64,000 nt of DNA from Octopus vulgaris (lineage: Eukaryota). Below the pieces are notes generated by a model. It did not search any database and was not told where the DNA came from. It worked only from the letters and a program-made list of their open reading frames with translations. The position numbers and the translations under genes were made by a program. This document shows, piece by piece, positions 5,841 through 64,000 of the stretch (positions are counted from its first letter, which is position 1; each line of letters starts with the position of its first letter). The DNA lies in NCBI GenBank assembly GCA_951406725.2, contig OX597839.1, positions 9,486,001 to 9,550,000 of the forward strand, written 5' to 3'.

Positions 5841-8147
5841 GCATATTTTGCTCTTTAGAATAATATTGCTTGTGCTGCAGTATCCAGCTTGGAGACGATG
5901 CTCTGTCTATCTTGTACTATGATAGCTTGTGTCCAGCGAGATGCTACTGTATTCGTTTCCAGTGTGATACTACCTAGAAATAAATGTCGATATGACGAAT
6001 CGTTGTGTCGTATGCTTATCTCTGACACACCCCAAGATTGTTTAGAACGTCACAGATTGGTAAAATAATTTTGTTTATTGCCTTTTGCGCGCGTGTAACA
6101 GAAGAATATCGTTTTTTTCATAAGCAGGTCGTTGTTTAGGTGGATGGATCCTTCCATATTTACAACATGAATTGATCCAGTCATGTCTAGGCTTTTTTAA
6201 AAAATCTTTGTACGGAGTAATATTAAATTTTAAGTTGTTTTTTTCTCATCTACTGATACTTGTTTTGTCACCGTTGAATCTGAAATCTTCAGTGATGCTT
6301 TTTCCCTACATAGCTCTACTTTTATCTATAACCCTTTCAACGTTAATTTTGTATCCTGAAGCAGTATCTCTCAAGAATCTTTGTTTAGTATTCCACATAC
6401 ATTTCTGTTGCTCATTAAATCATTTAATAAATTTTCTAATTCAGTCTTTATCGTTCAGCTTATTGTCAGTTTGAAATGAATCAATTTTCTCCGATGGGAA
6501 CAGATTTCTCTTAAAGATAGATAGCAGATACATGTAACATTTTTTTCTAAGGTGACAGAACTCTCGGAACTTCGTTTTAACAGTGATAATTTTGTCTTTA
6601 TCGTCTGGGTTTTCAAATCCGAAAGAGTTAAATACCTCTTCTCCTTTGGGGGACTTGCGATGTGGAGATTAAGTTGTAACCTGCACTTTTTTCTTTTCCC
6701 ACAACTCCTGCGGCAGGTGAGTGAAAGTCATTCATTGTTCCCACACCTTTTACACATTGTAGTTTCCATCTAAATTTCCTTCGAAGCTCAGGCCTTTTCG
6801 TAACTTCAGGCTTATATCTTCTGAAAGTACTTCACTTTAAATGAGTTGCACATGTATTTTATGTGCGCGTAAACGAAGTCCATCAAGTAAATAAAATTAA
6901 AGGAGACAATTAATACTCATATTTGTGTTTGCGCCTTTTTTCTTCAGTGGCGAGAGGTTACTCGATTTCAACATCATTGTTATGTCGTGTCATAAACGAC
7001 ATAGATAACCAGATAAATCAAGAGGAGACTTTAATCATAATTCATTTGCTCAGGCGGTCATTGCTAGACTTGCATTGTATATTTTATTTAATTATGATTG
7101 ATTAAATACAGGCATAAGTAACAAGTAACTTACAATGCAAGGGAAGTAATTCAATTCAACAAGTACAACTTCATTGCTAACAACAGTGGAGGCGCAATGG
7201 CCCAGTGCTTAGGGCAGCAGACTCGCGGTCGTAAGAACGTGGTTTCGATTCCCAGATCGGGCATTTGAGCAAAAACAATTAAGTTCCACGAGGCTCATTT
7301 GTCAGTTTGACTACACTACGCGCTTCTGAAATCTAGTAAATCTCTACCTACGATGGCTATTATTCAAGTGACAATTATAATAAAGTGACCCTTTATTCAA
7401 GTGACAATTACTACTACAACTAGTAGCAGTATCTTACATATGACATAGTACTTCCATTATTATAAAATACACGTTTACTTTCGATAAGTTAACCCCGAGT
7501 GAATTTGATTCTTAAACTGACAAATGAGCCTCCCAGTAAAGGGATTTGGTTTGCAAGATTCTTTATATGAGTTCGTGTGTTGAAGCATATTCTGTTGTGT
7601 CTGGGGAGAGTCATTCTCTTTTAGTGCCTTATTATTAACATGGAAAGTAGATATTTAAAAAAGGCGCTTTATGAAGGAGGAGCGGCGCTGAAAATTAATC
7701 ATATTGAAGAAAAGTAATTTCTTCTATATTTGCTATGCATTTCTTTCTCTCTCTCTCTGCTTATTTTTGATGCACTTATCTCCTCCTATAGATCTGGCAT
7801 TGTAGTAATGTATGAAATGTTTATGACGAATGAATTCAGTTTTCATTTCCTGTCAGTTTTTATCTAGAGCATGTTCTCATTTCTACTAAGTTGTGTGGTC
7901 CTACCTTTCGTATCGAACAAACTTACAAAGCTATTACTTTTCTAATGTGAAAAACATAATTTCACATAGGACACACACAACAGAGTGAGTAATGAAAACA
8001 GGTAATGGATAAAAGCGGCAAGAAATAAAAACGAAATTCATACCAAAGGTCAATAAAACGGAGATAAAAGCAAATAAGATTGATCCATATTTCGTTTTTG
8101 GATTCGGTTTGCAAGATTCTTTATATGAGTTCGTGTGTTGAAGCATA

Positions 8148-33076: not shown

Positions 33077-33187
33077 ATTTATGTTATGTTATTTATGTTA
33101 AATATATATATATTAAATATATTTATGTTAAATGTTATTCTACATCTTTTTATCATTTATTTCAGCTAAAGCTTATGTTGGACCAAG

Positions 33188-33533
33188 ATGCCACCAAGCT
33201 CAGGAGAACTATGGGGCCTACATTTGATGCCTTCACAGATCGATGTCGATTGTCTGTTGCCAACAGGAATTTTAGTACCTCTTCGTTGTAATCGCAATGC
33301 CACGCTAGAGAGTATCAAGACAGACCTCTGGGTAGAGGCAAAGAAATACCCATTCCATACAAAACTCCTAAACCCAACCTCATATGTATTTGTCAGCATC
33401 ACACAAGATGCTGAACATGAGGAATTCTTTGATGAAACTAAAAGACTTTGTGATTTGAGACTTTTCTTGCCTTGGCTGAAGGTTGTTGAACCCGAGGGTA
33501 ACAGAGAAGAGAAAAAATTGAATTATGAAATTG
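33188..33533 (+). CDS. PIK3CA: PIK3CA coding exon 1 (adaptor/p85-binding domain); exon begins at 33166
   Basis: [15 protein letters not shown]...[16 protein letters not shown]...[13 protein letters not shown]. Acceptor ttcag ends at 33165; donor G|gtgagt, phase 1. Confidence 0.96.
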
Positions 33534-36500
33534 GTGAGTTTTTTTAAGTATTTCTTTTTCCATTTTTTTCTTTTAAGTGTTAAATATTTGGATCACCTCA
33601 AGAACTATCACTTTAGCCTACTGAGTGCTGATTCTGCCAGTTTTTTTTTTGCCAGCTGAAGATTTATCACCCTATCAAAGTCTGAAGTGATGATTAGAAT
33701 ATTTTTTTTGATTTTCTTTTCTATTCGTCAATTAATCTAGTGATTGAGAAGATTAACATAAAATCCAAGACATTTCCACTGTGACTGTCACATTTTTTTC
33801 TTTGCACGGTGTATTTAGACCCATATCCAATTCATCCTCTTTTTGAAGACAATATAGTTTGATATGAGAGTGATTTTGCCACTATCTCTTGTTTTCTAGC
33901 AGTTTGAGTGACCATGTAAAGATTTCCTTTAGTTTTACCTTAGTACTGGAGTGCAGTTAGGGCATTTGCTTAACCCTTTAGCATTTAATCTGGTCATATT
34001 TGGCCAAAATAATCTACCATTTTCTTCCTCCTATCCTACTTATTTAATCTATTCTCCAAATTTCACCACCACCCCCTGCCAGAGCGTTGTGGGGCTTTTA
34101 GGTGTTTTTGCTCAATAAACATGCGCAATGCCTGGTCTGGGGATCGAAACCGTGATCCTCCGACCGTGAGCCCGCTGCCCTAGCCACTGGGCCATTGCGC
34201 CTCCACATGTGGAATTAATACCAGCACACTATCCATACCATGGATAAGAAGCCTTTTTACCCATTCTATACAACACATTCCTTGGATATTGGAACAGCAA
34301 AATTAACATCCAACATATATTTCTATTTTTATTCATTTTATTCTTATATTTCCATTTATACTTCCTATATCTCTCCCTTTCCAAAATAACTTCTTATATT
34401 GAACCCCACTATTTCCTTCTATTCAACTCTCTCGTGTCGTCTCTGATGATGGGATATCTTTTATATCCTTGAAACAGCTGTAAGACTACCCTTCACTTTA
34501 TAAAATGTCCTAGAAATTTCACACTTCCTTGGCTTTGTTGTCTCATTTTATTTAGCCTATACACACTCACACACGATCCATGTTAGACTCCTCACTCATG
34601 CTATTATCAAACCGGGAGTCTAACAGCAGTTTTTCCATAACACTTACATAGCCTTACTTTTCTTTTGGATCTTCTGGATACCAAAACCTCACACACACAC
34701 ACACACATATACATACATATACACACATACATATGTGATGGATTTCTTTCAGTTTCTCTCTACCAAATCCACACTCAAGGCTTTGGTTGTCCCTAGGCTA
34801 TAGAAGACGACACTTGCTCAAGATGCCAAGCAGAAGGACTGAGCCCTTGTTAGAAATTATTAATTGTTATTCCAAAATCTATTTGGTTTTGCTGTCTTTG
34901 AAGTTTGAGATCTATCTTTATTGGTGTATTTTATAATTATTGTTTTCTTCTCAATTGTTAGGTATGGCCGTTGGTATTCCAATAAGTGATTTCAATGAGA
35001 TGAAAGAACTTGAAGTGATGACATTCCGTCGTAACATTCTGGAAGTTTGTAAAGAGGTAGTGGCTTGCCGAGATGATAAAGCTGGCCATAAACGAGCCCT
35101 GTACAGTTATCCCCCTGAAGTGGAATCTTCCAGAACAAATCCCAGTCATGTGCAAAAAAAGTTAAATAGAGGTAGGTAGACTTTGTTGTATTCAATATAT
35201 ACACTACATACATACATACCTACATACATACATACATGTATATGTATGTATATATATATGCATATATATATATATATAAGTATGTAAGGCGCATGGCTCA
35301 GTGGTTAGAGCGTCGAACTTATGATCGTGAGGTTGTGAGTTCGAATCCCGGACTGGGCTGCATGTTGTGTTCTTGAGCAAGACACTTTATTTCACATTGC
35401 TCCAGTTGGCTCAGCTGTAGAAATGAGTTGTTACGTCACAGGTGCCAAGCTGTATCGGCCTTTGCCTTTCCCTTGGATAACACTGGTGGCGTGGAGGGGG
35501 AAGGCCAGTATGCATGGGCGACTGCTGGTCTTCCATAAACAACCTTGCCCGGGCTTGTGCCTGGGAGGGTAACTTCCAGGTGCAATCCCACGGTCGGTCA
35601 TGACCGAAGGGGGTCTCATATACTCGTGTATGTAAACTCTTAGCATCCTGTATGACATGAATCCACCCAACAACTTATCTGTCTGTCAGTCAGTCCTATA
35701 CTGCACAAATCAAACGGTCTTTGTTTACATTCATTTTAAAGGACGTTAGGAACCTCTCTAAACTAAGAGAAAAAACATCAAATCCTTCCTCTATTATTTA
35801 ACATTCTGTAACTTGCAAAAATTAATATCAGCCCATGTTCAATTCAATTTAATTCAATTCAATTCAATTTTTATTGGCTCAAAAAGCAAAAGCAAGGCCA
35901 TGTAGGGGGACAGGGAGTTATGTACAGGGAGGGTGGTCATGCAAAGAGTTCAGGCCATTTCTGGTCAAGAGAGACTTTGAACCGAGCGGTCATCGGCATC
36001 TTCACTATCTCGTCCGGCAGCTTATTCCACGGATCCGCAACCCGGACGGAGAAAGCCCCTCTCCTTCGATTGAGATGAAATCGTCGTAGATAGAGCTTTT
36101 CGGAGTGACCCCGCAGCCCACACTCTGGAGTGTTGCTGAAGTTTTGTGATTTTATTCCTTTAACGAAATTTAAAAAAGAAATTTATTGAAACTTACTTTG
36201 AAAGTGAAACTTACTTTGAAAGTGAAACTTACTTTGAAAGTGAAACTTACTTTGAAAGTGAAACTTACTTTGAAAGTGAAACTTACTTTGAAAGTGAAAC
36301 TTACTTTGAAATTTTATTGAAACTTACTTTGAAAGTGAAACTTACTTTGAAAGTGAAACTTACTTTGAAATTTTATTGAAACTTACTTTGAAAGTGACAA
36401 CTTATTCGATGATTTAATTGATGATTTAATGACAGATAAGGCTGTTGGCTTTGGAGATGATAACCAGAGTAGTAAATCCGTTCCTTCAGTACAAGTGAGA

Positions 36501-50453: not shown

Positions 50454-53400
50454 TTCCGTGCCGGTGGCACGTAAAAAGCACCATCCAATCATGGCCGTTG
50501 CCAGCCTCGTCTGGCACGTAACAAGCACCCACTACACTCACAGAGTGGTTGGCGTTAGGAAGGGCATCCAGCCATAGAAACATTGCCAGATCAGACTGGG
50601 CCTGGTGCTGCCTTCTGGCTTCCCAAACCCCAGTTGAACCGTCCAACCCATGCCAGCATGGAAAGCGGACGCTAAACGATGATGATGATGATGATGATGA
50701 TGATATATATTTTGTTTCTTTTTCCCCCATTTCTTTCAGGTGTGCAAGCATTGAATGATATTACGAAACAAGAAACTATTCCTATCTGGACTATCAAAAC
50801 TAAACTGCGCATCAAGATAAACAGTGCTACTTATGTCAATGTGAAAGGAGAAGGCAAGGTAAAATACAGGCGCCTCTTTTCTTTGAAGTTTTACTTGCAT
50901 TAATAAATATAATGACATGGGTGTAGAGTAAGTTCTGCCTTTCAAGCTTTTGGGGTTGATAAAATAAGTACCATTTGAACATTAGGGATGATGTAATCAA
51001 CTGACTGCCTCCCACGAAATTTCAGGCCTTTGTGCCTATAGTAGAAAGGGTTATTGACAATAGATTGGAAGAATGATTAGAGCATTGAACTTTATTCCTT
51101 GTTGTATTCAGTTAAATTCTTTTATGTTTTTAGTCCATATCCTGTTATGGCCAATTATGCCTTTTATCTTTTTTTTGGTGGGGTGGGGGTCAATAAAAAA
51201 CGTATCAGTCAAATACTGGGAATCAGTAACGTTGACTGAATTCCCTTTTCCCAGATTTCTACTCTCTTGGAACGCAAAGTAAAAATAATGCTTATTATTA
51301 TTGAATGTGTGTAAATGTTTCTTACCAAGCAAGTTTTTTACTACAGCCATGCCTCTGCTTAATATACAGGGTGCGGTGAATAAACCATCATCTAAATTAT
51401 GCAAAAATGAGAATAACTCTGACATCCCATTTTAACAGATATATTAACTCCATATTGAGTCTGAGACCATGTGGGAAGGTGAATGGAGGTATAACATTGC
51501 CATCACTAGTGATCACTTCAAACATGATGATGTTGACTGGATGTTTCATTTTGATCACTCTGTACATTTCCTCAGATTGACATCCAAACACTCTGAAATG
51601 TTTGTATTGGAGCTTCTGGTGCAAAACCAAGCAGTACAGCATGTCATTTCCAAATTTCTGGCTGAGTGAATTATGTCATGGTCCTATTTTTCTCACAGAC
51701 GGTGCCAGACTGACCCTACTATACTTTGTAGTTGACAAAATTAAAAACAAGCAGTGCGCACATGCGAAATTAAAAATATAAAATGGTGACAATTTATCCA
51801 TTGCACTTTGTATATATAAAACAGTGTACATAAGCAGGGAAAGAACTTATAGACTTTCTCAAAATAGTAGCCAAACATCCTTTGAACTACACAAAGTATT
51901 CCATATTTAATTCATAGTTTAACCCTTTAGCATTTAAACTGGCCATATCCAGCCATGATATTCTTCAAGTTTTAAGTGCAAACTGGCCAGATCCTGCCTC
52001 TTACTCCTACCTACAATGTCATTCTTAAAATAAGCAATCACATCACTGAAATCTTGAAGTTACAAAATAATTCATGAATAATTGTAAGCAGTGTAAATAA
52101 AAAGCATTACATTTGATACAATAATCTGCGTGCTGAAAGATTAAAGATCTCTTGTGAATCTTGTATTAAGAAATATTTCTTGCATTCTTTCTCTAGATTT
52201 ATGTGAAAACTGGTCTTTTCCATGGAACTGAACTATTGTGTCCAACCAAAGAAACTGAGTGTGTTGACTCTCTAAATCCCCGCTGGAACCAATGGCTTGA
52301 ATATGAAATTCCAGTATCTGAGATACCACGAAGTGCTCGACTCTGCCTTTCAATATGTTCTGTTGCTAAGCGACGGAAAACCAAAGTGAGTTTTTTTTTT
52401 TTTTTTTTTTTTGCACTTACCTGCTTTGAATATTCTGCATCATCATCAGCAGCAGTAGCAGTGGAGGTACAATGGCCCAATGGTTAGGGCAGCAGACTCG
52501 CAGTCGGAGGATCGCAGTTTCGATTCCCAGACCAGGTGTTGTGTGTGTTTATTGACCGAAAACACCTAAAGCGCCACGAGGCTCCGGCAGGGAGTGGTGG
52601 AGACCCCTGTTGTACTCTTTTGCTCCAACTTTCTCTCACTCTTTCTTCCTGTTTCTTGTCCCCGACTTCCTACGCAACCGCTGAGCCTGGATGCACATTC
52701 ATCCATCCGTCGATGCTCTCGGTGTTGGAGGTTGACCTGCTTTCTCTTCTGCGGGTCTTACGAATAGCAAAGGACCATGTTTCGGACTTCTATCTTGCGA
52801 GCTCTGGGACGAAGACCGTTCGCTCAACAGCAGCAGCAGCATTAGCACCAAAACCATCATCAGTACTAGCATCACCCATCATTGTGAACATTCATTTTGC
52901 ATCCATTTTCTATTCCACTGGTTGTTGGATGGATTTGCACGACTGATTCCTCCCATGCATATACATCCCACATCATCATCGTCATCATAATCATCATTTA
53001 ATATCTATTTCCCCTACTAGCATGGATTTGATGGTTTGACAGGATCCAGTGAGTCACAGGTCTGCATTGTGCCCCACGTCAACTTTGGCATGGTTTCTTA
53101 CAGCTGCAAGCCCTTTATAATGCTAACAACTTTTAAAGGCGGTGCTCCAGCATGGCCACAGTCAAATGACTGAAACAAGCAAAAGAATAACTTTACAGTA
53201 TGTGCTGAGTGCTTTTTATATGCCACCAGCACTAGTGGGATTGACAAGTAACTTGCAAGACAGGACAGTACAAGAAAAAGGAATGAAATAAGGGGTTGGG
53301 TAGACTGGGAAAGGTGCATTTGACCAAATAGGGGGAACATTTGAGAGATGAGAGAGAAGATTTTATGCCTGGTACAAACAGGAAGTCATTGTGGGGTTGC

Positions 53401-56400
53401 TTGACCTGTAACACACTGCACCTAAATCTTCCTCAGACGCTACTCAACCATCATCATCATAATCACCATGGCCACCACTGTCAGCTTCATCATCTCTACC
53501 AACATTGCCAGCGTCAGTTATCATTTCTGTTACCATCATCACCACCACTACTACCACCACAAGTCACTTCTAACACCACCCCTACCAGCACCATCACTAT
53601 CATCATCTCTTATCGCTTGTCACCTCTGTAAACACTGTCATCATCATCATCCTTACCATCTCATTCACCTGCAGCACCACCATCATCTTCATCACCATCT
53701 GTCTTCTATCATCACCATCTGTCTTCAATCATCACCATCTGTCTTCTATCATCACCATCTGTCTTCTATATCACCATTTGTCTTCTATCATCACCATCTG
53801 TCTTCTATCATCACCATCTGTCTTCTATCATCACCATCTGTCTTCTATCATCACCATCTGTCTTCTATCATTACCATCTGTCTTCTATCATCACCATCTG
53901 TCTTCTATCATCACCATCTGTCTTCTATCATCACCATCTGTCTTCTATCATCACCATCTGTCTTCTATCATCACCATCTGTCTTCTATCATCACCATCTG
54001 TCTTCTATCATCACCATCTGTCTTCTATCATCACCATCTGTCTTCTATCATCACCATCTGTCTTCTATCATCACCATCTTCATCATCACCATCTGTCTTC
54101 TATCATCACCATCTGTCTTCTATCATCACCATCTGTCTTCTATCATCACCATCTGTCTTCTATCATCACCATCTGTCTTCTATCATCACCATCTGTCTTC
54201 TATCATCACCATCTGTCTTCTATCATCACCATCTGTCTTCTATCATCACCATCTGTCTTCTATCATCACCATCTGTCTTCTATCATCACCATCTGTCTTC
54301 TATCATCACCATCTGTCTTCTATCATCACCATCTGTCTTCTATCATCACCATCTGTCTTCTATCATCACCATCTGTCTTCTATCATCACCATTGTCTTCT
54401 ATCATCACCATCTGTCTTCTATCATCACCATTTGTCTTCTATCATCATCTGTCTTCTATCATCACCATCTGTCTTCTATCATCACCATCTGTCTTCTATC
54501 ATCACCATCTGTCTTCTATCATCACCATCTGTCTTCTATCATCACCATCTGTCTTCTATCATCACCATTGTGTCTTCTATCATCACCATCTGTCTTCTAT
54601 CATCACCATCTGTCTTCTATCATCACCATCTGTCTTCTATCATCACCATCTGTCTTCTATCATCACCATTTGTCTTCTATCATCACCATCTGTCTATCTA
54701 TCATCACCATCTGTCTTCTATCATACCATCTTCTATCATCACCATCTGTCTTCTATCATCACCATCTGTCTATCATCACCATCTATCATCACCATCTGTC
54801 TTCTATCATCACCATCTGTCTTCTATCATCACCATCTGCTTCTATCATCATTGTCTTCTATCATCACCATCTGTCTTCTATCATCACCATCTGTCTTCTA
54901 TCATCACCATCTGTCTTCTATCATCACCATCTGTCTTCTATCATCACCATCTGTCTTCTATCATCACCATCTGTCTTCTATCATCACCATCTGTCTTCTA
55001 TCATCACCATCTGTCTTCTATCATCACCATTGTCTTCCATCACCATCTGTCTTCTATCATCACCATCTGTCTTCTATCATCACCATCTGTCTTCTATCAT
55101 CACCATCTATCATCACCATCTGTCTTCTATCATCACCATCTGTCTTCTATCATCACCATCTGTCTTCTATCATCACCATCTGTCTTCTATCATCACCATC
55201 TGTCTTCTATCATCACCATCTGTCTTCTATCATCACCATCTGTCTTCTATCATCACCATCTGTCTTCTATCATCACCATCTGTCTTCTATCATCACCATC
55301 TGTCTTCTATCATCACCATCTGTCTTCTATCATCACCATCTGTCTTCTATCATCACCATCTGTCTTCTATCATCACCATCTGTCTTCTATCATCACCATC
55401 TGTCTTCTATCATCACCATCTGTCTTCTATCATCACCATCTGTCTTCTATCATCACCATCTGTCTTCTATCATCACCATCTGTCTTCTATCATCACCATC
55501 TGTCTTCTATCATCACCATCTGTCTTCTATCATCACCATCTGTCTTCTATCATCACCATCTGTCTTCTATCATCACCATCTGTCTTCTATCATCACCATC
55601 TGTCTTCTATCATCACCATCTGTCTTCATCACCATCTGTCTTCTATCATCACCATCTGTCTTCTATCATCACCATCTGTCTTCTATCATCACCATCTGTC
55701 TTCTATCATCACCATCTGTCTTCTATCATCACCATTTGTCTTCTATCATCACCATCTGTCTTCTATCATCACCATTTGTCTTCTATCATCACCATCTGTC
55801 TTCTATCATCACCATCTGTCTTCTATCATATCATCACCATCTGTCTTCTATCATCACCATCTGTCTTCTATCATCACCATCTGTCTTCTATCATCACCAT
55901 CTGTCTTCTATCATCACCATCTGTCTTCTATCATCACCATCTGTCTTCTATCATCACCATCTGTCTTCTATCATCACCATCTGTCTTCTATCATCACCAT
56001 CTGTCTTCTATCATCACCATCTGTCTTCTATCATCACCATTGTCTTCTATCATCACCATCTGTCTTCTATCATCACCATCTGTCTTCTATCATCACCATC
56101 ACCTGTCTTCTATCATCACCATCTGTCTTCTATCATCACCATTTGTCTTCTATCATCACCATTGTCTTCTATCATCACCATTGTCTTCTATCATCACCAT
56201 CTGTCTTCTATCATCACCATCTGTCTTCTATCATCACCATCTGTCTTCTATCATCACCATTTGTCTTCTATCATCTACCATCTGTCTTCTATCATCACCA
56301 TCTGTCTTCTATCATCACCATCTGTCTTCTATCATCACCATCTGTCTTCTATCATCACCATCTGTCTTCTATCATCATCTGTCTTCTATCATCACCATCT

Positions 56401-59400
56401 GTCTTCTATCATCACCATCTGTCTTCTATCATCACCATCTGTCTTCTATCATCACCATCTGTCTTCTATCATCACCATCTGTCTTCTATCATCACCATCT
56501 GTCTTCTATCATCACCATCTGTCTTCTATCATCACCATCTGTCTTCTATCATCACCATTTGTCTTCTATCATCACCATCTGTCTTCTATCATCACCATCT
56601 GTCTTCTATCATCACCATCTGTCTTCTATCATCACCATCTGTCTTCTATCATCACCATCTGTCTTCTATCATCACCATCTGTCTTCTATCATCACCATCT
56701 GTCTTCTATCATCACCATCTGTCTTCTATCATCACCATCTGTCTTCTATCATCACCATCTGTCTTCTATCATCACCATTTGTCTTCTATCATCACCATCT
56801 GTCTTCTATCATCACCATCTGTCTTCTATCATCACCATCTGTCTTCTATCATCACCATCTGTCTTCTATCATCACCATCTGTCTTCTATCATCACCATCT
56901 GTCTTCTATCATCACCATCTGTCTTCTATCATCACCATCTGTCTTCTATCATCACCATCTGTCTTCTATCATTACCATCTGTCTTCTATCATCACCATCT
57001 GTCTTCTATCATCACCATCTGTCTTCTATCATCACCATCTGTCATCTATCATCACCATCTGTCTTCTATCATCACCATCTGTCTTCTATCATCACCATTT
57101 GTCTTCTATCATCACCATTTGTCTTCTATCATCACCATCTGTCTTCTATCATCACCATTTGTCTTCTATCATCACCATCTGTCTTCTATCATCACCATTT
57201 GTCTTCTATCATCACCATCTGTCTTCTATCATCACCATCTGTCTTCTATCATTACCATCTGTCTTCTATCATTACCATCTGTCTTCTATCATCACCATCT
57301 GTCTTCTATCATCACCATTTGTCTTCTATCATCACCATCTGTCTTCTATCATTACCATCTGTCTTCTATCATCACCATCTGTCTTCTATCATCACCATCT
57401 GTCTTCTATCATCACCATCTGTCTTCTATCATCACCATCTGTCTTCTATCATCACCATCTGTCTTCTATCATCACCATCTGTCTTCTATCATCACCATCT
57501 GTCTTCTATCATCACCATCTGTCTTCTATCATCACCATTTGTCTTCTGTCATCACCGTGATCACCATCACTGTTCTCATCATGCGTCACCTCTGTCATCA
57601 CTTCTGCCATAATCATGTTCGTCAATATTGTCACGGCTACTGACTCCCTATATTTTATTTGGCCGCAGGAGGAGATAAATGTCAAAAGCAAAGAAGTTGT
57701 TAAAAAGAAGGAAAGGAAAGAAAAGGTAAGGTTATTGTTATTTAAAGATCTGTGTAAGCATTTGTGTGTGTACACTGGTATACCTTTCTTTGGTCTTACA
57801 ATTGTCTCCTTAATGTTGTTGTTTAGCCCAAGGTCAGTCCTGATCCTGTCGACCTATGATCAGTGGTGTTCTAGTTGTGACCATCTCTTTCCCTATGTGC
57901 AAGCAACTCAGAATTACATGTTTCTTTTTTCTAAGAAAGTAATGTGTAATATGTGGAGGCTCAATCGCCCAGTGGTTAGGGCAGCGGACTTGCGGTTGGA
58001 GAATCACGGTTCCAATTCCCAGACCGGGCGTTGTATGTGTTTATTGAGCGAAAGCACCTAAAGCTCCACGAGGCTCCGGCAGTGGGGGGTGGCGACCCCT
58101 GTTGTACTCTTTCGCCTCAACTTTCTCTCACCCTTTCTTCCAGTTTCTTAAGTAACGCTGCGATGGACTGGTGTCCTGTCCAGCTGGGGGGAACACATAC
58201 GCCATAGAAACCGGGAAACTGTTTGGCTAAAAACATTAATTAAAAAATCTGTGAGCCAAATTGAACAGATCCGGGTTGAGTAGGATCTTTTTTAAGTTAA
58301 TATTTTATAGCTGGGTGCCTTTCCTGATGCCAACACTTTTAGTTATTTCTTATGGCATGCAGAAGCAGTGTACCCATAAAAATAAATGAGCATAATACTT
58401 GAATATTTAATATATATATATATGTATATTTAATACACATGTGCACACACACACGCACACACACATGCCAGGGTTATCTGTACCAGTTTCCACCTGTCTA
58501 ATTCTACTCAAAACAATTTGTGGAGGCACATGGCCTAGTGGTTAGAGCAGCGAACTCGTGGTCGAGGGATCGCCGGTTCGAATCTCAGACTGGGTGATGT
58601 GTGTGTTAATGAGCGAAACACCTAAGCTCCATGCGGCTCCGGCAGAAGGTAATGGCGAACTTCTGCTGACTCTTTCGCCACAACTTTCTCTCACTCTTCC
58701 CTCCTGCATCATGCAGTTCACCTGCGACGGATCGGTGTCCCATGCAGGTGGGGAACCTATACGCCAAGAAACCGGGAAACCGGCCCCTTATGAGCCAGGC
58801 ATGGCTTGATAAGGAACAAACAACAGCTCAAAACAATTTGGTCTACTTGGAAGACTATCATAGAGGATGCCTACTCAAGTTTCCACCATGCATTGAATGA
58901 AACTAGAGCCATATGGTTGGGGTGGTTTAGTGTACCTCTTAATCACACAAACTTGCTTGTACCAAACGATATGTATTTATCATTTGTTGATATTTTAAAA
59001 CTTGTTTTTCCATCTTGTTTCAGTTCGATTATGCTCTGGCCTGGGGTAATTTGCAAATGTTTGATTTCAACCACCGCCTGCTTAGTGATAAAGTGGGGCT
59101 TCATTTGTGGCCAATGCCTCAAGGCATGGATGAACTTCTCAATCCTATAGGAATACCAGGTAAAAGCATTTCCCTTTCTCTGTTTTTCTTGGACTTTTCC
59201 CTTCTCAACCCTATTATTGTCTAGAAGAAATTCTTGGCTTGGCTTGGCTTGGTTTAGCTTGGCTTGACTTCATGCTCTTGCTTGACAGGGCTGGAGTCAT
59301 TCCAAGTTAGTGGTCCCAGAGGCATCATTTAGTGTAGAGCCACCAGTACTCTCTATCGCTGGCAGTCCCATGCCAACACCTCTGCATACTTCCAGATGGC

Positions 59401-62400
59401 AGAAAGCCTCTGGAGATCTTCTCCAATCACATTCAGCCATCTGGTGTGGGGCCTGCCATAAGGCCTCTTCTGGCCTGCAGCTGCTGCATTGAAAAATGTT
59501 AAAAGCTAGTTTGGCAATTCAGTTTCTTTTCTTTTTCTATTGTTGACACCTTTCTTAAGCTTCAGTGTTTCTCCCATATCAGTACAGTAGTCTCCCTTCT
59601 CTCCAGTCTTCATTCCTATATATTGGTAGTCTTCTTTCTTTACCTGATAGTAATTTTCCACTCCGACTCTGCATAACAGCCAACATAACATCCATTTTTG
59701 CTAGGAATTTGCTTTGGACACAGTATCTGTTTCCTGACTTGGCTTTTTATCAATATATACAAAATAAGGAAATGGAGTAATACATCTTAATCAATAGTAA
59801 ACTACCAGATAATACCCAATCACATAATTTATTAAACCACTACATATGAACATTAAGGTCAAACATAATAATATAGAACAAAACAATGTACATCAATGAG
59901 TAATGAGATACAATAAGTACAGTATGTATAAGTGAATATAAATAAATACAAATATTGTACTCACAACCCCTATCTCAATTTGTAATTTTTATCAATATAA
60001 ACATGTAAGACAACAATTGCAGCGTGGAAGGTGTTTGTAAGTCATTTAAGAAACACACAAAAGCCGTTCGATTCACTTCAACATTTAAGTTTAATTTGTC
60101 AAAATATTTTTGTTGTTTTAAGACCGTGACCTGTTAGCACAGATTTTTGTCAGTGAACAGGTCACGGTCTTAAAGCGATGAAAATATTTTGACAAATTAA
60201 ACTTAAATGTTGAAGTGAATTAAACGGCTTTTGTGTGTTTCTTAAATGACTTACAAACACCTTCCACGCTGCAATTGTTTTTGTTTCAGCACACGATCTC
60301 AGATCAAATCACTTGCTATGCAAGTACATCTCCGTAAAACATGTAAGAGATTCCAAGGAAGGAATAAACTTAAAGAATATATGTATGTGTGACAATTTTC
60401 AACATGTGAACATGTGTATATGTGTTTCATCATCATCATCATCATTTAACGTCCATTGTCCATGCTGACATGGGTTGGCCAGTTTGACCAGGGCTGGTAA
60501 GCTGAGGGCTGCACCAGACTCTAATCACATTTGGCATGGTTTCTACAACTGGATGCCCTTCCTAATGCCAACCACTCCGAGAGTGTAATGGGTGCTTTTA
60601 CATACCACCGGCACGGGTCCCAGATGCATGACCCCAGTTACTGCCATGCCTATGATTTCACTTGGCTTGATAGGTCGTCTGCTCAAGCACAGCATATTGC
60701 CAAAGGTCCTGGTCATTTGTCATTGCCTCTGTGAGGTCAAGCACTTGAAAGGTGCTTTTTACATGTCACTGGCACACATGCTAGTTATGTGACACCGGCA
60801 TTGACCACATTGCCTCTATGAGGCCTAACACTCAAAAGGTGCTTTTTATGCGCCAGTTATGTGACACCGGCGTTGACCATGACTGATTTCACTTGGCTTG
60901 ACGGGTCTTCTCAAGCCCAGCATATTGCCAAAGGTCTATCTATATGTTTTTTTTTTTAATAATATGCACCATCCGATCGTGGCCGTTTGCCAGCCTCGTC
61001 TGGCACCTGTGCCGGTGGCACGTAAAAAGCACCCACTACACTCATGGAGTGGTTGGCGTTAGGAAGGGCATTCAGCCGTAGAAACATTGCCAAATCAGGC
61101 TGGGCCTGGTGAAGCCTTCTGGCTTCCCAGACCCCAGTTGAACCGTCCAACCCATGCTAGCATGGAAAGCGGACGCTGAACGATGATGATGATGATGATG
61201 ATACACCATATCATATTGGATATTTTAATGTAACCAAAGTAATTTTTGCCACCTACTCTCCTTTTCTTCCTCTTCTCTGTTATGACGTACTTAATCTGTC
61301 GATTTCATTTCAGGTTCAAACCCAAACAAAGACTGTCCAAGTCTGGATATTGAATTTGACAAATTTTCCCATTCTGTAACGTTTGATATGGAAAAATTTG
61401 ATAGATATTCCAAACAGAACTCGTACGATGGTTACGTACAAGATGGCTATGTGGATGTGAGTAGTTCTTTTATCTATTAAACTGCTTTAGTTTTTAATTT
61501 GAGAAATGGAGAATTGTTGCATATGGAGTATTAGAATTTGGGCTTTATGCTTTCTTATTTGGTATTAACCCTTTAGCATTTAAACCTGCTATCTCAGGCT
61601 CAAATAGTCTACCTTTCCTAAGTTAAAACTGACCAGATCCAGCCTTTCTCACCTGGCCTACAGTGTCATTCTGAAAATAAGCAATTACATCAACGAAATC
61701 TTGAAGTTTTGAGATAATGCATTGTTAACTTAAAAATGTGAACAGATGTATGTCAATAATTGTTTCTAATAGACATGGACATACAGACATCTCAAAAAAA
61801 TTATTCTTTCCTGACCTTTTTGCACCATTTCCATCATGAAATTTACAGATAAGCTTAGTTACTCCCTTCAGAAACCACATACCCAGATATGCTTAAAAGT
61901 TATTATCAACAAAAAAAAACAAACTCTTAAAATATTGGGGGGGACAAACACAGACACACACACACATATATATACATATACACAACAGGCTTCTTTCAGT
62001 TTCCGTCTACGAAATCCATTCACAAGGCTTTGGTTGGCCCAAAGCTATAGTAGAAGACACTTGGCCAAGGTGCCACGCAGTGGGACTGAACCCAGAAACA
62101 TGTGGTTGGTAAGCAAGCTACTTACCACACAGCCACTCCTGCACCTATAAGATAAAATTTTTTTTAAAATTACCTTAACTTTAACCTTTTAGTACTTAGA
62201 TTATTCTCTCAAACGTAATAAATTCATATTGTTTTGAATTAATCAAGCATTATCTTGTTGCTTTGAGATTTTGATGTTGTGACTGTTTATTTTTAGAATC
62301 ACATGGGACAGATAGGAGAGGCCAGATCTGGTCAGTTTGAGCATAAAACATGTGGAATAATTTGTTCGACCGTGGTCGAGACAATGGAATTTACTATGCT

Positions 62401-63099
62401 ACGCCAGACTTCATGGTCCATCATAGCATTACGGAGGTCCTGGTGTTGGATGCCTGTATCCCTGGAGATTACATCAGGGTAGGAGAGTGTGCGCCCTCTG
62501 GTATCGCGAGTAGATGGCTTCTAGAGGAGAAGAGCAGAAATTACCTCGTTTTCAGCTCTACAACAATGTCCCACAAACTGGACTCTTCTACCTTTCCTAC
62601 CTTTCCAGCTATAGAAAATCTGCCTCACCAAATTCTGTCTGATCCATGCTAGCATAGGTCAGATGATAAAATAAATGCTGATTATGGAACCAGAATAAAA
62701 TTTAGTTGATAGAACTTTCAGCAAAAGTATACTCTGTGACTTCTGAGCTGTTAGTTTCAACTGTAGTATGTGATTGTTTTTATTTTTTTTTAACTATAAT
62801 TTAGTCTCTTAGGGTAAAAAGAGGACATAGGTTTTATTTTAAATTGTTTCTATTTTATTTTTTCTTTATGCCAGAATAAGCAAGACATTACCTGTGAGAG
62901 GGGACAGTTGTCTTGTGTGATCATAGTAAAATTTAGTTGAGAGAACTTTTTTGGTAAAAGTATAATCTGCAATCTGTTGGTTTCTATTCTAGTATATAAA
63001 TCCGGATGCTAAACAGATGAAACAACTAGAAGAACTAGTCAGCCGAGATCCTTTATCTGAACTTTCAGAACAAGAGATGCTTTTTGTATGGCAACTAAG
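33188..63099 (+). CDS. PIK3CA: PI3K class IA catalytic subunit p110alpha-like, spliced and 3'-incomplete: join(33188-33533,34962-35171,48104-48357,49652-49769,50740-50858,52197-52385,[57669-57725 optional],59024-59159,61314-61456,62993-63099)
   Basis: All exons have GT-AG boundaries with compatible phases. The translation follows human p110alpha from [10 protein letters not shown] through RDPLSE..EQE. Confidence 0.95.
34439..34486 (+). ncRNA. Type I minimal hammerhead ribozyme, sense to the PIK3CA intron
   Basis: GTCT-CTGATGA-tGGGATAT(ctttt)ATATCCTt-GAAA-CAGCTG-TA-AGAC; GUA cleavage triplet. Confidence 0.7.
34962..35171 (+). CDS. PIK3CA: PIK3CA coding exon 2 (ABD-RBD linker)
   Basis: (G)[10 protein letters not shown]...[11 protein letters not shown]...[10 protein letters not shown]...KKLNR. 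210 nt; ttag acceptor, gtaggt donor. Confidence 0.95.
35287..35617 (+). mobile_element. tRNA-derived SINE family D
   Basis: A and B boxes (GAGTTCGAATCC); matches 3799-4133. Confidence 0.8.
36188..36398. repeat. 18-bp tandem repeat GAAACTTACTTTGAAAGT, about 11 copies
   Basis: Seen directly in the sequence. Confidence 0.9.
36849..37069. mobile_element. Mariner-type MITE (GTGCTGAAAAGTTCCTGG TIR)
   Basis: TIRs present; copies at 38276-38921, 63600-63660 and 63850-64000. Confidence 0.7.
37727..38151 (+). mobile_element. SINE family A
   Basis: Full-length copy inside a mariner remnant. Confidence 0.85.
38444..38861. mobile_element. MITE family F copy nested in a mariner-type MITE
   Basis: TIRs present; it interrupts the element at 38276-38921. 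Confidence 0.8.
39170..39498 (-). mobile_element. RTE-like LINE fragment
   Basis: [30 protein letters not shown] resembles the RTE ORF C-terminal region. Confidence 0.6.
39499..40690 (-). mobile_element. Penelope-like element RT remnant
   Basis: [18 protein letters not shown] and [37 protein letters not shown] (PLE RT palm/thumb); disrupted. Confidence 0.75.
40760..41220 (+). mobile_element. Non-autonomous retroelement family E (internal GTGGCACGTAAAAAGCACC repeats, (GAT)n tail)
   Basis: GGTTGGCGTTAGGAAGGGCATCCAGC core. Copies at 4429-4626, 14460-14716, 17778-18148, 21880-22116, 22538-22810(-), 27301-27560(-), 28601-28806(-), 31475-31890(-), 49883-50277, 50451-50704, 60428-60940(-) and 60966-61202. 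Confidence 0.8.
41700..42111 (+). mobile_element. SINE family A
   Basis: Full-length copy with a (GTAAAAGA)n tail. Confidence 0.85.
42240..42790 (+). mobile_element. Second, unrelated Penelope-like RT thumb remnant
   Basis: [27 protein letters not shown]...P.YTK..IPYLQFL motifs across frameshifts. Confidence 0.55.
43519..44396 (+). mobile_element. Internally deleted Tc1/mariner (maT-like) element
   Basis: TIR CAGGGTGTTTAAGCTAAATTTGA; WQQDLAPCH and [16 protein letters not shown] motifs. Relatives at 31330-32500 and 51367-51812(-). Confidence 0.75.
46509..46822 (+). mobile_element. tRNA-derived SINE family C
   Basis: TGGCCTAGTGG A-box, GGGTTCGAATCTC B-box and (AAAC)n tail. Related copies at 7186-7295, 15055-15340(-), 34080-34206(-), 37255-37570(-), 52460-52830 and 57953-58220. 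Confidence 0.8.
47048..47411 (+). mobile_element. SINE family A
   Basis: Near full-length copy. Confidence 0.85.
48104..48357 (+). CDS. PIK3CA: PIK3CA coding exon 3 (Ras-binding domain)
   Basis: (E)[10 protein letters not shown]...RQKYSVKV...[13 protein letters not shown]...[22 protein letters not shown]. ccag acceptor, gtaagt donor. Confidence 0.95.
48383..48576 (+). mobile_element. LINE 3'-end fragment with (GAT)n tail
   Basis: Homologous reverse copy at 62362-62540. Confidence 0.65.
49354..49587 (-). mobile_element. SINE family A, 5' half
   Basis: Reverse partial copy; a similar partial lies at 61936-62146. Confidence 0.8.
49652..49769 (+). CDS. PIK3CA: PIK3CA coding exon 4 (end of RBD, linker)
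   Basis: [23 protein letters not shown]...PTYVQK(G). gcag acceptor, gtgagc donor. Confidence 0.92.
50740..50858 (+). CDS. PIK3CA: PIK3CA coding exon 5 (start of C2 domain)
   Basis: (G)[39 protein letters not shown]. ttcag acceptor, gtaaaa donor; the N345-equivalent is conserved. Confidence 0.92.
52197..52385 (+). CDS. PIK3CA: PIK3CA coding exon 6 (C2 domain)
   Basis: [15 protein letters not shown]...[10 protein letters not shown]...[20 protein letters not shown]. ctag acceptor, gtgagt donor. Confidence 0.95.
53690..57550. repeat. Minisatellite, 20-bp unit CATCACCATCTGTCTTCTAT, about 190 copies
   Basis: Near-perfect tandem array with degenerate (CAT/CAC)n flanks. Confidence 0.99.
57669..57725 (+). 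CDS. PIK3CA: Candidate 57-nt in-frame cassette exon [19 protein letters not shown] in the C2 polybasic loop
   Basis: Branch-point-like TACTGAC near 57638, pyrimidine tract, gcag acceptor and AAG|gtaagg donor. Phase 0/0 matches the flanking exons; purine-rich, no stop codon. Confidence 0.7.
58519..58825 (+). mobile_element. SINE family C
   Basis: Near-identical to 46509-46822. Confidence 0.8.
59024..59159 (+). CDS. PIK3CA: PIK3CA coding exon 7 (C2 domain)
   Basis: [15 protein letters not shown]...[20 protein letters not shown](G). ttcag acceptor, gtaaaa donor. Confidence 0.95.
60012..60338. mobile_element. Second copy of the palindromic PLE-like element
   Basis: Same arms and tail as 29878-30213, with a different central junction. 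Confidence 0.75.
61314..61456 (+). CDS. PIK3CA: PIK3CA coding exon 8 (end of C2, linker); too short for the ORF track
   Basis: (G)[27 protein letters not shown]...DGYVD matches human GSNPNKETPCLELEFD. ttcag acceptor, gtgagt donor. Confidence 0.93.
62993..63099 (+). CDS. PIK3CA: PIK3CA coding exon 9 (start of helical domain, E542/E545 region); too short for the ORF track
   Basis: [35 protein letters not shown](R). ctag acceptor, AG|gtaagt donor, phase 2. Confidence 0.93.
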
Positions 63100-64000
63100 G
63101 TAAGTCCGGTATCTTGTAACTTTACCTTTCATCCACCCAGAAGTTCATAAATTATGTGCTAATCAGGTCTTGTGTATCAATATAATATTCCTCTTCCCTG
63201 AATTCATGGCTTTGTGCTTGGTTGCGAGCTGGTAGAATTATTAGAGCTCTAGAAAAAAAAATGTTTTATGGTATTTGTTTTGGCTCTTTATATTTTGGGT
63301 TCAAATTTTGCTGAGTTAAAATTTCCTTTTTTGTCCCTTCAAGGTTAATAAAATACAGTAACAGGTAGTTATTGGGTCAATGTTATCAACTAATCCCGCC
63401 ACATAAAATTTCTGGCCATATACCTGTATTAGAAACAATTATGATTTGCAGAATCATTGGAACATCGCCATGCAGTATTCTAGCTCTGGCAGAATCGTCA
63501 GCACGCCAGGCAAAATGCTTAGCAGCATTTCATCTATTTTTAGGATCTGACTTCAAATTCTGCTGAGGCCAACTTTGCCTGTAATCCCTTTGGGGTTAAT
63601 CCTCCAACCAAGCCTTTTGTGATACCCTTAAAGCCAGGAACTTTTCAGCACACCCTCATGTTTATATATATATATATATATGTGACCTCGTGAGCACCGC
63701 CAGCAATTTTTTTTCCTCTGTCTTCCCTTCTCGGGATCTTTCCTTCTCCTTTGTTTCTGACAAAGAGCTCCAATAATACTTTATTTGTTCCACGTCCTCG
63801 CGTTGCTGTTTTTTTTGTGTTTTCTTGTTTGTATTAACTATATATATATATGGGGGCGAGGTGCTGAAAATTCCTGGTTTCGGGTAAAAGAAAATACAGG
63901 AGGATCAGTTAATTATGATTTTATTCAACATGTTCCCTTCTCAGATTCACACACCCATTGCAATGGTTATCAGAAGGTTGGGCCTCCAACCAGGCCTTTT

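What the first reader, a model, noticed from the sequence alone, without database searches (positions are those of the whole stretch)
53675..57668. 3.9-kb YCAY/UCUU minisatellite forming a ~4-kb AG-free zone that ends exactly at the cassette exon acceptor
Seen: each sense 20-mer holds three YCAY motifs (UCAU, UCAC, CCAU) and a UCUU. I find no AG dinucleotide from 53675 until the acceptor at 57667-57668, and older degenerate CAT/CAC tracts flank the array. Established: YCAY clusters bind Nova/Pasilla and UCUU binds PTB; both usually repress an exon when bound upstream, and long AG-exclusion zones mark regulated exons. Inference: a repeat-length-tunable splicing switch, or protein sponge, controlling a PI3K membrane-binding insert, possibly neural versus non-neural.
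Basis: partly seen in the sequence, partly recalled or inferred. Interest (0 to 1): 0.75.

Follow-up and report, generated by a model that had tools for sequence, protein, structure and literature searches.

The report
Octopus PI3K intron minisatellite, likely passenger
A real 3.9-kb repeat sits just before a small exon of an octopus PI3-kinase gene and spells binding sites for splicing repressors, but the exon appears to be kept in transcripts and a related organism lacks the repeat, so it is likely a tolerated repeat expansion rather than a splicing switch.

Summary
Observation confirmed. A 20-mer repeated about 195 times (53689-57556; three YCAY and one UCUU per unit) gives an AG-free zone of 3,992 nt ending at the acceptor of a real 57-nt exon of a PIK3CA-like gene. 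The array occurs only here in the genome, and short-read runs support it. The switch reading is mostly unsupported. The exon is in 7 of 7 cephalopod-type proteins, and no skipped form was found. It is inferred to be included in the main RNA contig of 3 of 3 informative runs from the array-bearing species. The array looks long in two organisms, short in one and absent in one. That last organism has an AG 5 nt before the branch-point motif, so its AG-free zone is about 30 nt. The only YTRAY motif lies 26 nt from the acceptor, so this is not a distant-branch-point exon. Tandem arrays fill 16% of a genome sample. One point favours regulation: a conserved 110-nt YCAY cluster at the acceptor, the densest of the gene's 20 acceptors, which could drive minor or tissue-specific skipping; this is untested. 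Side finding: the exon lengthens p110-alpha's membrane-binding loop to p110-beta's length. The scan's notes held no earlier report of this.

The parts
52197..52385 (+). Upstream coding exon of the PIK3CA-like (p110) gene, C2 domain N-half, ending ...KRRKTK; GT donor follows
   Evidence: Pfam PI3K_C2 E=2e-14; human p110alpha 354-414; P0123 350-412 exact
52854..53011 (+). Separate degenerate CAT/YCAY tract in the same intron
   Evidence: 16 YCAY in 52851-53010; density scan
53431..53688 (+). Old degenerate (CAT/CAC)n tract, left flank; likely seed of the array
   Evidence: 35 YCAY in 258 nt, with 7 AG
53689..57556 (+). Single-locus 20-bp minisatellite, about 195 copies, no AG in the unit
   Evidence: TRF; all 153 exact 20-mers of the genome are in this window; short-read support
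53675..57666 (+). AG-free zone, 3,992 nt, 97% of it array
57557..57668 (+). Proximal YCAY-rich flank with predicted branch point CTGAC (57640-57644), weak pyrimidine tract and CAG acceptor
   Evidence: 11 YCAY; only YTRAY in the AG-free zone; pyrimidine fraction 0.65; aligns without gaps in organisms A, B, D, E
57669..57725 (+). 57-nt purine-rich, frame-preserving exon encoding [19 protein letters not shown], a cephalopod-specific insert in the basic C2 loop
   Evidence: inclusion in RNA contigs inferred
59024..59161 (+). Downstream coding exon (FDYALAWGN...)
   Evidence: spliced joint onward to 61311 in three runs

Best explanation
This is a single-locus 20-bp minisatellite in an intron of an octopus PI3K catalytic-subunit gene that likely grew out of an ordinary CAT-type microsatellite tract and is likely a tolerated passenger rather than a splicing switch. 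Shown: the array, its AG-free unit, the real downstream exon, and a branch-point motif 26 nt from the acceptor. Inferred: one 20-nt piece of the old CAT tract was amplified by slippage or unequal crossing-over, to very different lengths in close relatives. Because the unit has no AG and no YTRAY it adds no rival acceptor, so the array can grow without cost, and the 4-kb AG-free zone is a by-product. The exon (proximal branch point, AAG|GTAAGG donor, purine-rich body) is likely included constitutively or nearly so, whatever the array length.
For: (1) Exon present in 7 of 7 cephalopod-type proteins (3 NCBI entries; 4 Logan proteins seen on 178 contigs in all). No skipped form among 126 proteins or among 19 shorter ones. 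(2) In 3 of 4 runs laid (X15, X17, X18; organism A; three studies) one spliced contig of 3.4-3.6 kb begins its match to the next exon at 59022, two bases before the exon. That fits the 57-nt exon's end (AG), not the upstream exon's (AA). Depth in bin 57560-57748 equals 32, 33 and 39 bases times that contig's depth, against 32 unmasked exon bases. (3) DNA contigs, repeat-end depth versus unique depth: X2 (A) about 2,000 vs 28.9; X8 (D) 657-1,119 vs 6.6; X5 (B) 190 vs 52.8; X11 (E) zero, with an 814-nt contig running 554 letters upstream unlike the repeat. (4) In E, G>A at 57635 creates an AG 5 nt before CTGAC, so its AG-free zone is about 30 nt. (5) The only YTRAY in 3,992 nt is at -26. (6) Background in 920 kb: 151,507 bases in tandem arrays, 6 arrays of 1 kb or more, 1 of 3.8 kb or more; 29 of 184 stretch-strands hold a YCAY tract as dense as the left flank. 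(7) Independent CAT-derived minisatellites exist elsewhere: a 1.4-kb 19-mer (L112) and a 1.09-kb 15-mer with a 1,132-nt AG-free run (L119), neither ending at a recognisable exon.
Against: The 112 nt before this acceptor hold 11 YCAY, against 0-7 at the other 19 acceptors of the gene; only 157 of 16,372 background windows reach 11. The cluster survives in B, D and E (11-12 motifs after applying the listed differences only). Two of the three dense sense-strand YCAY tracts in 90 kb lie in this intron. The exon is small and frame-preserving, has the second-weakest pyrimidine tract of 20 (0.65), and skipping would restore the 26-residue ancestral segment. The array RNA is predicted unstructured (z=+3.05), so it would be open to binding. 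No sampled AG-free zone reached 2 kb. Logan contigs drop minor isoforms, tissues are unknown, and the 57725-59024 joint itself was not listed because the tool masks 57701-57742. Contig depth is not copy number. That organism E includes the exon in RNA was not shown.
Confidence: 0.66

Rival explanations
1. The exon is a genuine cassette, skipped in some tissue (plausibly neurons) through Nova binding to the old YCAY cluster in the last ~110 nt of the intron. The 3.9-kb array is an incidental outgrowth of that element and adds little.
For: Highest YCAY count of the gene's 20 acceptors, at about the 1% level of background. Cluster retained in B, D and E, with the flank aligning gap-free (13 differences in 233 nt for E). 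Skipping gives the ancestral loop length. YCAY clusters within 200 nt of splice sites predict Nova action (PMC2014790 passage).
Against: No skipped protein among 7 cephalopod-type sequences, 178 Logan contigs or 19 shorter hits. Single unbroken contigs in three RNA runs. With 20 acceptors, a 1% event has about an 18% chance of hitting one of them. The neutral divergence to organism E could not be calibrated, so extra conservation is not shown.
Confidence: 0.2
2. One reading: array length tunes inclusion by loading many Nova or PTB molecules, or the intron RNA acts as a sponge for them.
For: 580 YCAY and 189 UCUU in sense orientation; unstructured RNA; length appears to vary among organisms and perhaps individuals (X2 about 68x unique depth versus 125-143 perfect 31-mers per phase in the assembly). 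Precedents: ABCA7 25-bp intronic repeat and 9,537 human splicing-associated repeats (PMC10078293 passages and abstract start); AUUUC repeat RNA rescued by NOVA2 (PMC13225218 abstract).
Against: The exon is inferred to be included in the species with a long array. The array is absent in E and short in B. About 98% of it lies beyond 200 nt of the acceptor. YCAY-dense tracts are abundant genome-wide, so one more intron is a poor sponge.
Confidence: 0.09
3. The array is an assembly artefact.
For: The array is very homogeneous (95%), and no read spanning it was examined, so its exact length is unverified.
Against: High-depth contigs match the repeat end in independent short-read runs of organisms A and D, and unique contigs run from the repeat into the exon. 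Variant units are interspersed along the array.
Confidence: 0.03

Closest known systems
Splicing-associated intronic tandem repeats (ABCA7 25-bp VNTR, CFTR (TG)n; PMC10078293, passages read)
   Same: Variable-length intronic repeat just upstream of an exon, whose unit spells RNA-binding-protein motifs
   Different: No link between length and skipping is shown here, and no skipped form was found
Nova-silenced exons with upstream YCAY clusters (PMC2014790, passages read)
   Same: Dense sense-strand YCAY cluster within 200 nt of the acceptor of a short frame-preserving exon
   Different: Alternative splicing and Nova binding not shown; most motifs lie kilobases away and derive from a common microsatellite type
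Long-AGEZ, distant-branch-point exons such as PTB exon 11 and GABBR1 exon 23 (PMC1431707, passages read)
   Same: Long AG-free zone before the acceptor (examples in the passages seen: 149-590 nt; here 3,992 nt)
   Different: Those use a branch point near the 5' end of the zone, and the zone is conserved. Here the only YTRAY is at -26 and the zone is about 30 nt in organism E
Vertebrate p110beta basic C2 loop with the KVKTKKSTK nuclear localisation signal (PMC11720314, passage read)
   Same: The exon makes the same loop segment 45-46 residues and lysine-rich; fish p110beta P0140 and P0142 have 45
   Different: The gene is p110alpha-like (bit scores 71 vs 48) and the loop sequences are not alike, so convergence is inferred; nuclear import is untested

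Membership tests
Single-locus minisatellite (VNTR) | Head-to-tail units of 10-60 bp at one locus | tested here: met
   Period 20, 195 copies; 153 of 153 exact genome matches are in this window
Single-locus minisatellite (VNTR) | Copy number varies | tested here: inconclusive
   Present, short or absent among organisms A, B, D, E by contig depth and cover; depth is not copy number and allele lengths within the species were not measured
Distant-branch-point (long-AGEZ) exons | Long AG-free zone | tested here: met
   3,992 nt
Distant-branch-point (long-AGEZ) exons | Branch point near the 5' end of the zone and none near the acceptor | tested here: not met
   Only YTRAY is CTGAC at -26; motif scan only, no lariat data
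Distant-branch-point (long-AGEZ) exons | Zone conserved in orthologues | tested here: not met
   Organism E has an AG at 57635-36
Nova-regulated cassette exon | YCAY cluster within 200 nt of the splice site | tested here: met
   11 YCAY in 112 nt, highest of 20 acceptors
Nova-regulated cassette exon | Exon is alternatively spliced | tested here: inconclusive
   Only the included form was found; contigs drop minor forms and tissues are unknown
Nova-regulated cassette exon | Nova binding and dependence | not testable with these tools
   Needs CLIP, knock-down or a minigene
Splicing-associated tandem repeat | Repeat length correlates with inclusion | not testable with these tools
   No paired long-read DNA and RNA; the long-array species is inferred to include the exon
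Class IA PI3K p110alpha-like gene | ABD, RBD, C2, helical and kinase domains; closest to p110alpha | tested here: met
   Pfam hits; PDB ranking; 21 exons match P0123

The most novel reading that the evidence does not exclude
Cephalopods gained a new exon that converts the membrane-binding loop of their p110alpha-like PI3K into a long, basic, p110beta-like loop (possibly a nuclear-import or lipid-binding module), under a Nova-type silencer that switches neurons back to the ancestral loop. In some octopus lineages that silencer has been amplified about 200-fold into a 4-kb tandem array, giving a natural allelic series of repressor-site dosage.
Probability: 0.1. Interest if true: 0.7.

Novelty: new member of a known kind. 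Interest (0 to 1): 0.27.

Why it matters
As a passenger, it is a useful caution: in this repeat-rich genome a YCAY-dense, AG-free kilobase array can arise from a CAT microsatellite and sit 110 nt from a used acceptor without evident exon loss. If the proximal cluster does regulate the exon, the natural series (no array, short array, long array) in close relatives would test directly how far from an exon, and at what dose, Nova or PTB sites act. The cephalopod-specific basic insert in a lipid-binding loop of PI3K deserves a look on its own.

Tried and rejected
Searching for a skipped isoform with three homologue searches and one cluster look-up: none found; this is weak for minor forms. No holder on record as RNA was listed; X21 (organism C) did not cover the exon and says nothing. 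The skip junction could not be tested directly, because the stretch holding both neighbouring exons contains the long repeat. Selection against AG inside the array: 5 of 60 possible substitutions would create AG, but only 4 distinct substitution types were counted, so the test has no power. The three open frames of 1,326-1,405 codons over the array were rejected as genes: they follow from a stop-free unit and lie in an intron. The DUF443 hit on 57561-58058 is below the curated cut-off (17.6 vs 26.2 bits) and was rejected. The AlphaFold job on alignment A1 was still unfinished, so no structure is used. Paper searches for 'octopus, PIK3CA, exon' (10 of 21 listed) and 'cephalopod, alternative splicing, Nova, octopus' (4 of 4 listed) showed no title on this locus; 'UUUCA NOVA2' found nothing. 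Earlier-findings look-ups by words and near this place were empty. No supplements were consulted.
Full report
Observation. The + strand has no AG between 53675 and 57666 (3,992 nt); the next-largest AG-to-AG gap in the window is 319. Tandem Repeats Finder reports one array at 53689-57556, period 20, 195.4 copies, 95% matches. It carries 580 YCAY and 189 TCTT motifs, and 149 of 189 split units are the exact consensus. All 153 exact copies of the unit in the 2.8-Gb genome lie in this window. The array makes up 3,868 of the 3,992 AG-free bases and stops 110 nt before the acceptor.

Gene. The flanking exons encode the C2 domain of a class IA PI3K closest to p110alpha. Protein P0123 (1,070 aa, named as Octopus by its source) maps letter for letter onto 21 exons in the window and the next stretches. 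Residues 413-431 come from 57669-57725, between a CAG acceptor and an AAG|GTAAGG donor. The insert follows the residue that aligns with human K416. K410, R412, K413 and K416 are reported as needed for PI3P binding and membrane recognition (PMC11380499 and PMC5350601, passages). So 'membrane-binding insert' is a fair reading of its position; its function is untested.

Is the exon a cassette? Between two fixed anchors the loop is 45-46 residues in 7 proteins and 24-28 in 108 others of the 126. Eleven could not be measured by motif; 7 of these are in alignment A1 and are short. The 7 long ones are the cephalopod-type sequences: three NCBI entries with the identical 19 residues, and four unnamed Logan proteins with a 20-residue version. 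P0002 and P0122 are 89% identical to P0123, and the four were seen on 178 contigs in all. That these four are squid or cuttlefish is my inference. No skipped form appeared, nor among 19 shorter proteins. Skipping would give 26 residues, the ancestral length, so a skipped form is structurally plausible.

RNA. I laid 4 of the 24 listed runs on 57560-63200. Three runs of organism A, from three studies and labelled RNA only by guess, each hold one contig of 3.4-3.6 kb spliced at GT..AG joints. Each begins its match to the next exon at 59022, two bases early. That fits a preceding exon ending in AG (the 57-nt exon), not AA (the upstream exon). Depth in the bin holding the small exon equals 32, 33 and 39 bases times the contig depth, against 32 unmasked exon bases. 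I therefore infer inclusion. The joint itself was not listed because part of the exon is masked. The fourth run did not cover the exon. Contigs drop minor isoforms and tissues are unknown, so minor or tissue-restricted skipping remains open.

Other individuals and species. Four more of the 24 runs were laid on 57497-57930. Depth at the repeat end versus the unique flank was about 2,000 vs 28.9 (X2, organism A, two differences from the window), 657-1,119 vs 6.6 (X8, D), 190 vs 52.8 (X5, B) and zero vs 61 (X11, E). In X11 an 814-nt contig matches 57550-57782 and runs 554 letters upstream unlike the repeat. Depth is not copy number, but the pattern argues against an artefact and suggests long, long, short and absent arrays. 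In E a G>A at 57635 creates an AG five bases upstream of CTGAC (57640-57644), leaving an AG-free zone of about 30 nt. That CTGAC is the only YTRAY in the whole zone, 26 nt from the acceptor. Long AG-free zones mark regulated exons because they betray distant branch points near the zone's 5' end (PMC1431707, passages); that logic does not apply here.

Background. I sampled 92 10-kb stretches at round coordinates, 20 of them from this chromosome. They hold 151,507 bases in tandem arrays, 6 arrays of 1 kb or more and 1 of 3.8 kb or more. AG-free runs of 1 kb or more number 3 and of 2 kb or more 0, so this zone is exceptional in length but not in kind. Tracts as YCAY-dense as the left flank occur in 29 of 184 stretch-strands. 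A loose pattern found other CAT-derived minisatellites. Of the five such sites fetched, two held arrays over 1 kb: a 1.4-kb 19-mer, and a 1.09-kb 15-mer with a 1,132-nt AG-free run. Neither ends at a recognisable exon.

What favours regulation. The last 112 nt before this acceptor hold 11 YCAY against 0-7 at the gene's other 19 acceptors, and the pyrimidine tract is second weakest. Only 157 of 16,372 background windows reach 11. The cluster is kept in B, D and E. The RNA is predicted to be unusually unstructured. YCAY clusters within 200 nt of a splice site predict Nova's effect (PMC2014790, passage); by that measure the old flank and about 90 nt of array could matter, and the other 98% would not. 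That PTB binds UCUU is recalled, not checked here.

Mechanism. Most likely (0.66) a 20-nt piece of an old CAT tract was amplified by slippage or unequal exchange (inferred). The unit has no AG or YTRAY, so it adds no rival acceptor, and the exon keeps being recognised through its proximal branch point, strong donor and purine-rich body (inferred). Rivals are a Nova-type cassette driven by the proximal cluster (0.2), a length-tuned switch or sponge (0.09), and an artefact (0.03). Precedents for the switch are the ABCA7 repeat and other human splicing-associated repeats (PMC10078293, passages) and AUUUC repeat RNA rescued by NOVA2 (PMC13225218, abstract). PMC4039745 (abstract) links a worm minisatellite to alternative introns. 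PMC10130476 (passages) states that p110alpha has no classical nuclear localisation sequence.

Side finding. With the exon, the loop has the same length (45) as in fish p110beta, whose C2 domain carries the KVKTKKSTK nuclear localisation signal (PMC11720314, passage). Convergence is inferred, not tested. Searches listed no paper on this locus.

Verdict. A real, unusually long intronic minisatellite, a new member of a known kind; regulation is unproven and the length-tuning idea is unlikely. Interest 0.27.

Noticed in passing
window 57669-57725: The cephalopod-specific exon brings the p110alpha-like C2 loop to 45-46 residues, with 13 K/R in its central 28-29; fish p110beta has the same 45-residue length and carries an NLS there. 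Possibly a convergent nuclear-import or lipid-binding module.
   Followed up: partly
L013:2316-2561: A dense sense-strand YCAY tract about 410-650 nt past the gene's stop codon, possibly in the 3' UTR.
   Followed up: no
L013, about 1610-1641: The last intron ends in a (GAT)n microsatellite directly at the acceptor, with almost no pyrimidine tract (0.41), yet the exon is in P0123.
   Followed up: no
window 5898-6059 and 33151-33535: Protein model P0125 (1,097 aa) uses an upstream coding exon at 5898-6059 and an internal deletion in the first p110 exon; probably an alternative or faulty gene model.
   Followed up: no
window 57666-57674: The acceptor reads CAG GAG GAG, a tandem NAGNAG-like site; all proteins seen use the first AG.
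   Followed up: no
L112:4425-5824; L119:3426-4512: Independent CAT-derived minisatellites (19-mer, 1.4 kb; 15-mer, 1.09 kb) elsewhere in the genome.
   Followed up: partly
window 53426-57643: All three + frames are open across the array (1,326-1,405 codons) and read the same 20-residue repeat; judged a by-product of a stop-free unit.
   Followed up: no
L073:4393-10000; L022:8083-10000: Long, homogeneous 51-bp and 41-bp satellite arrays in the random sample.
   Followed up: no
window 36187-36404: An 18/59-bp tandem repeat in the 12.9-kb intron.
   Followed up: no
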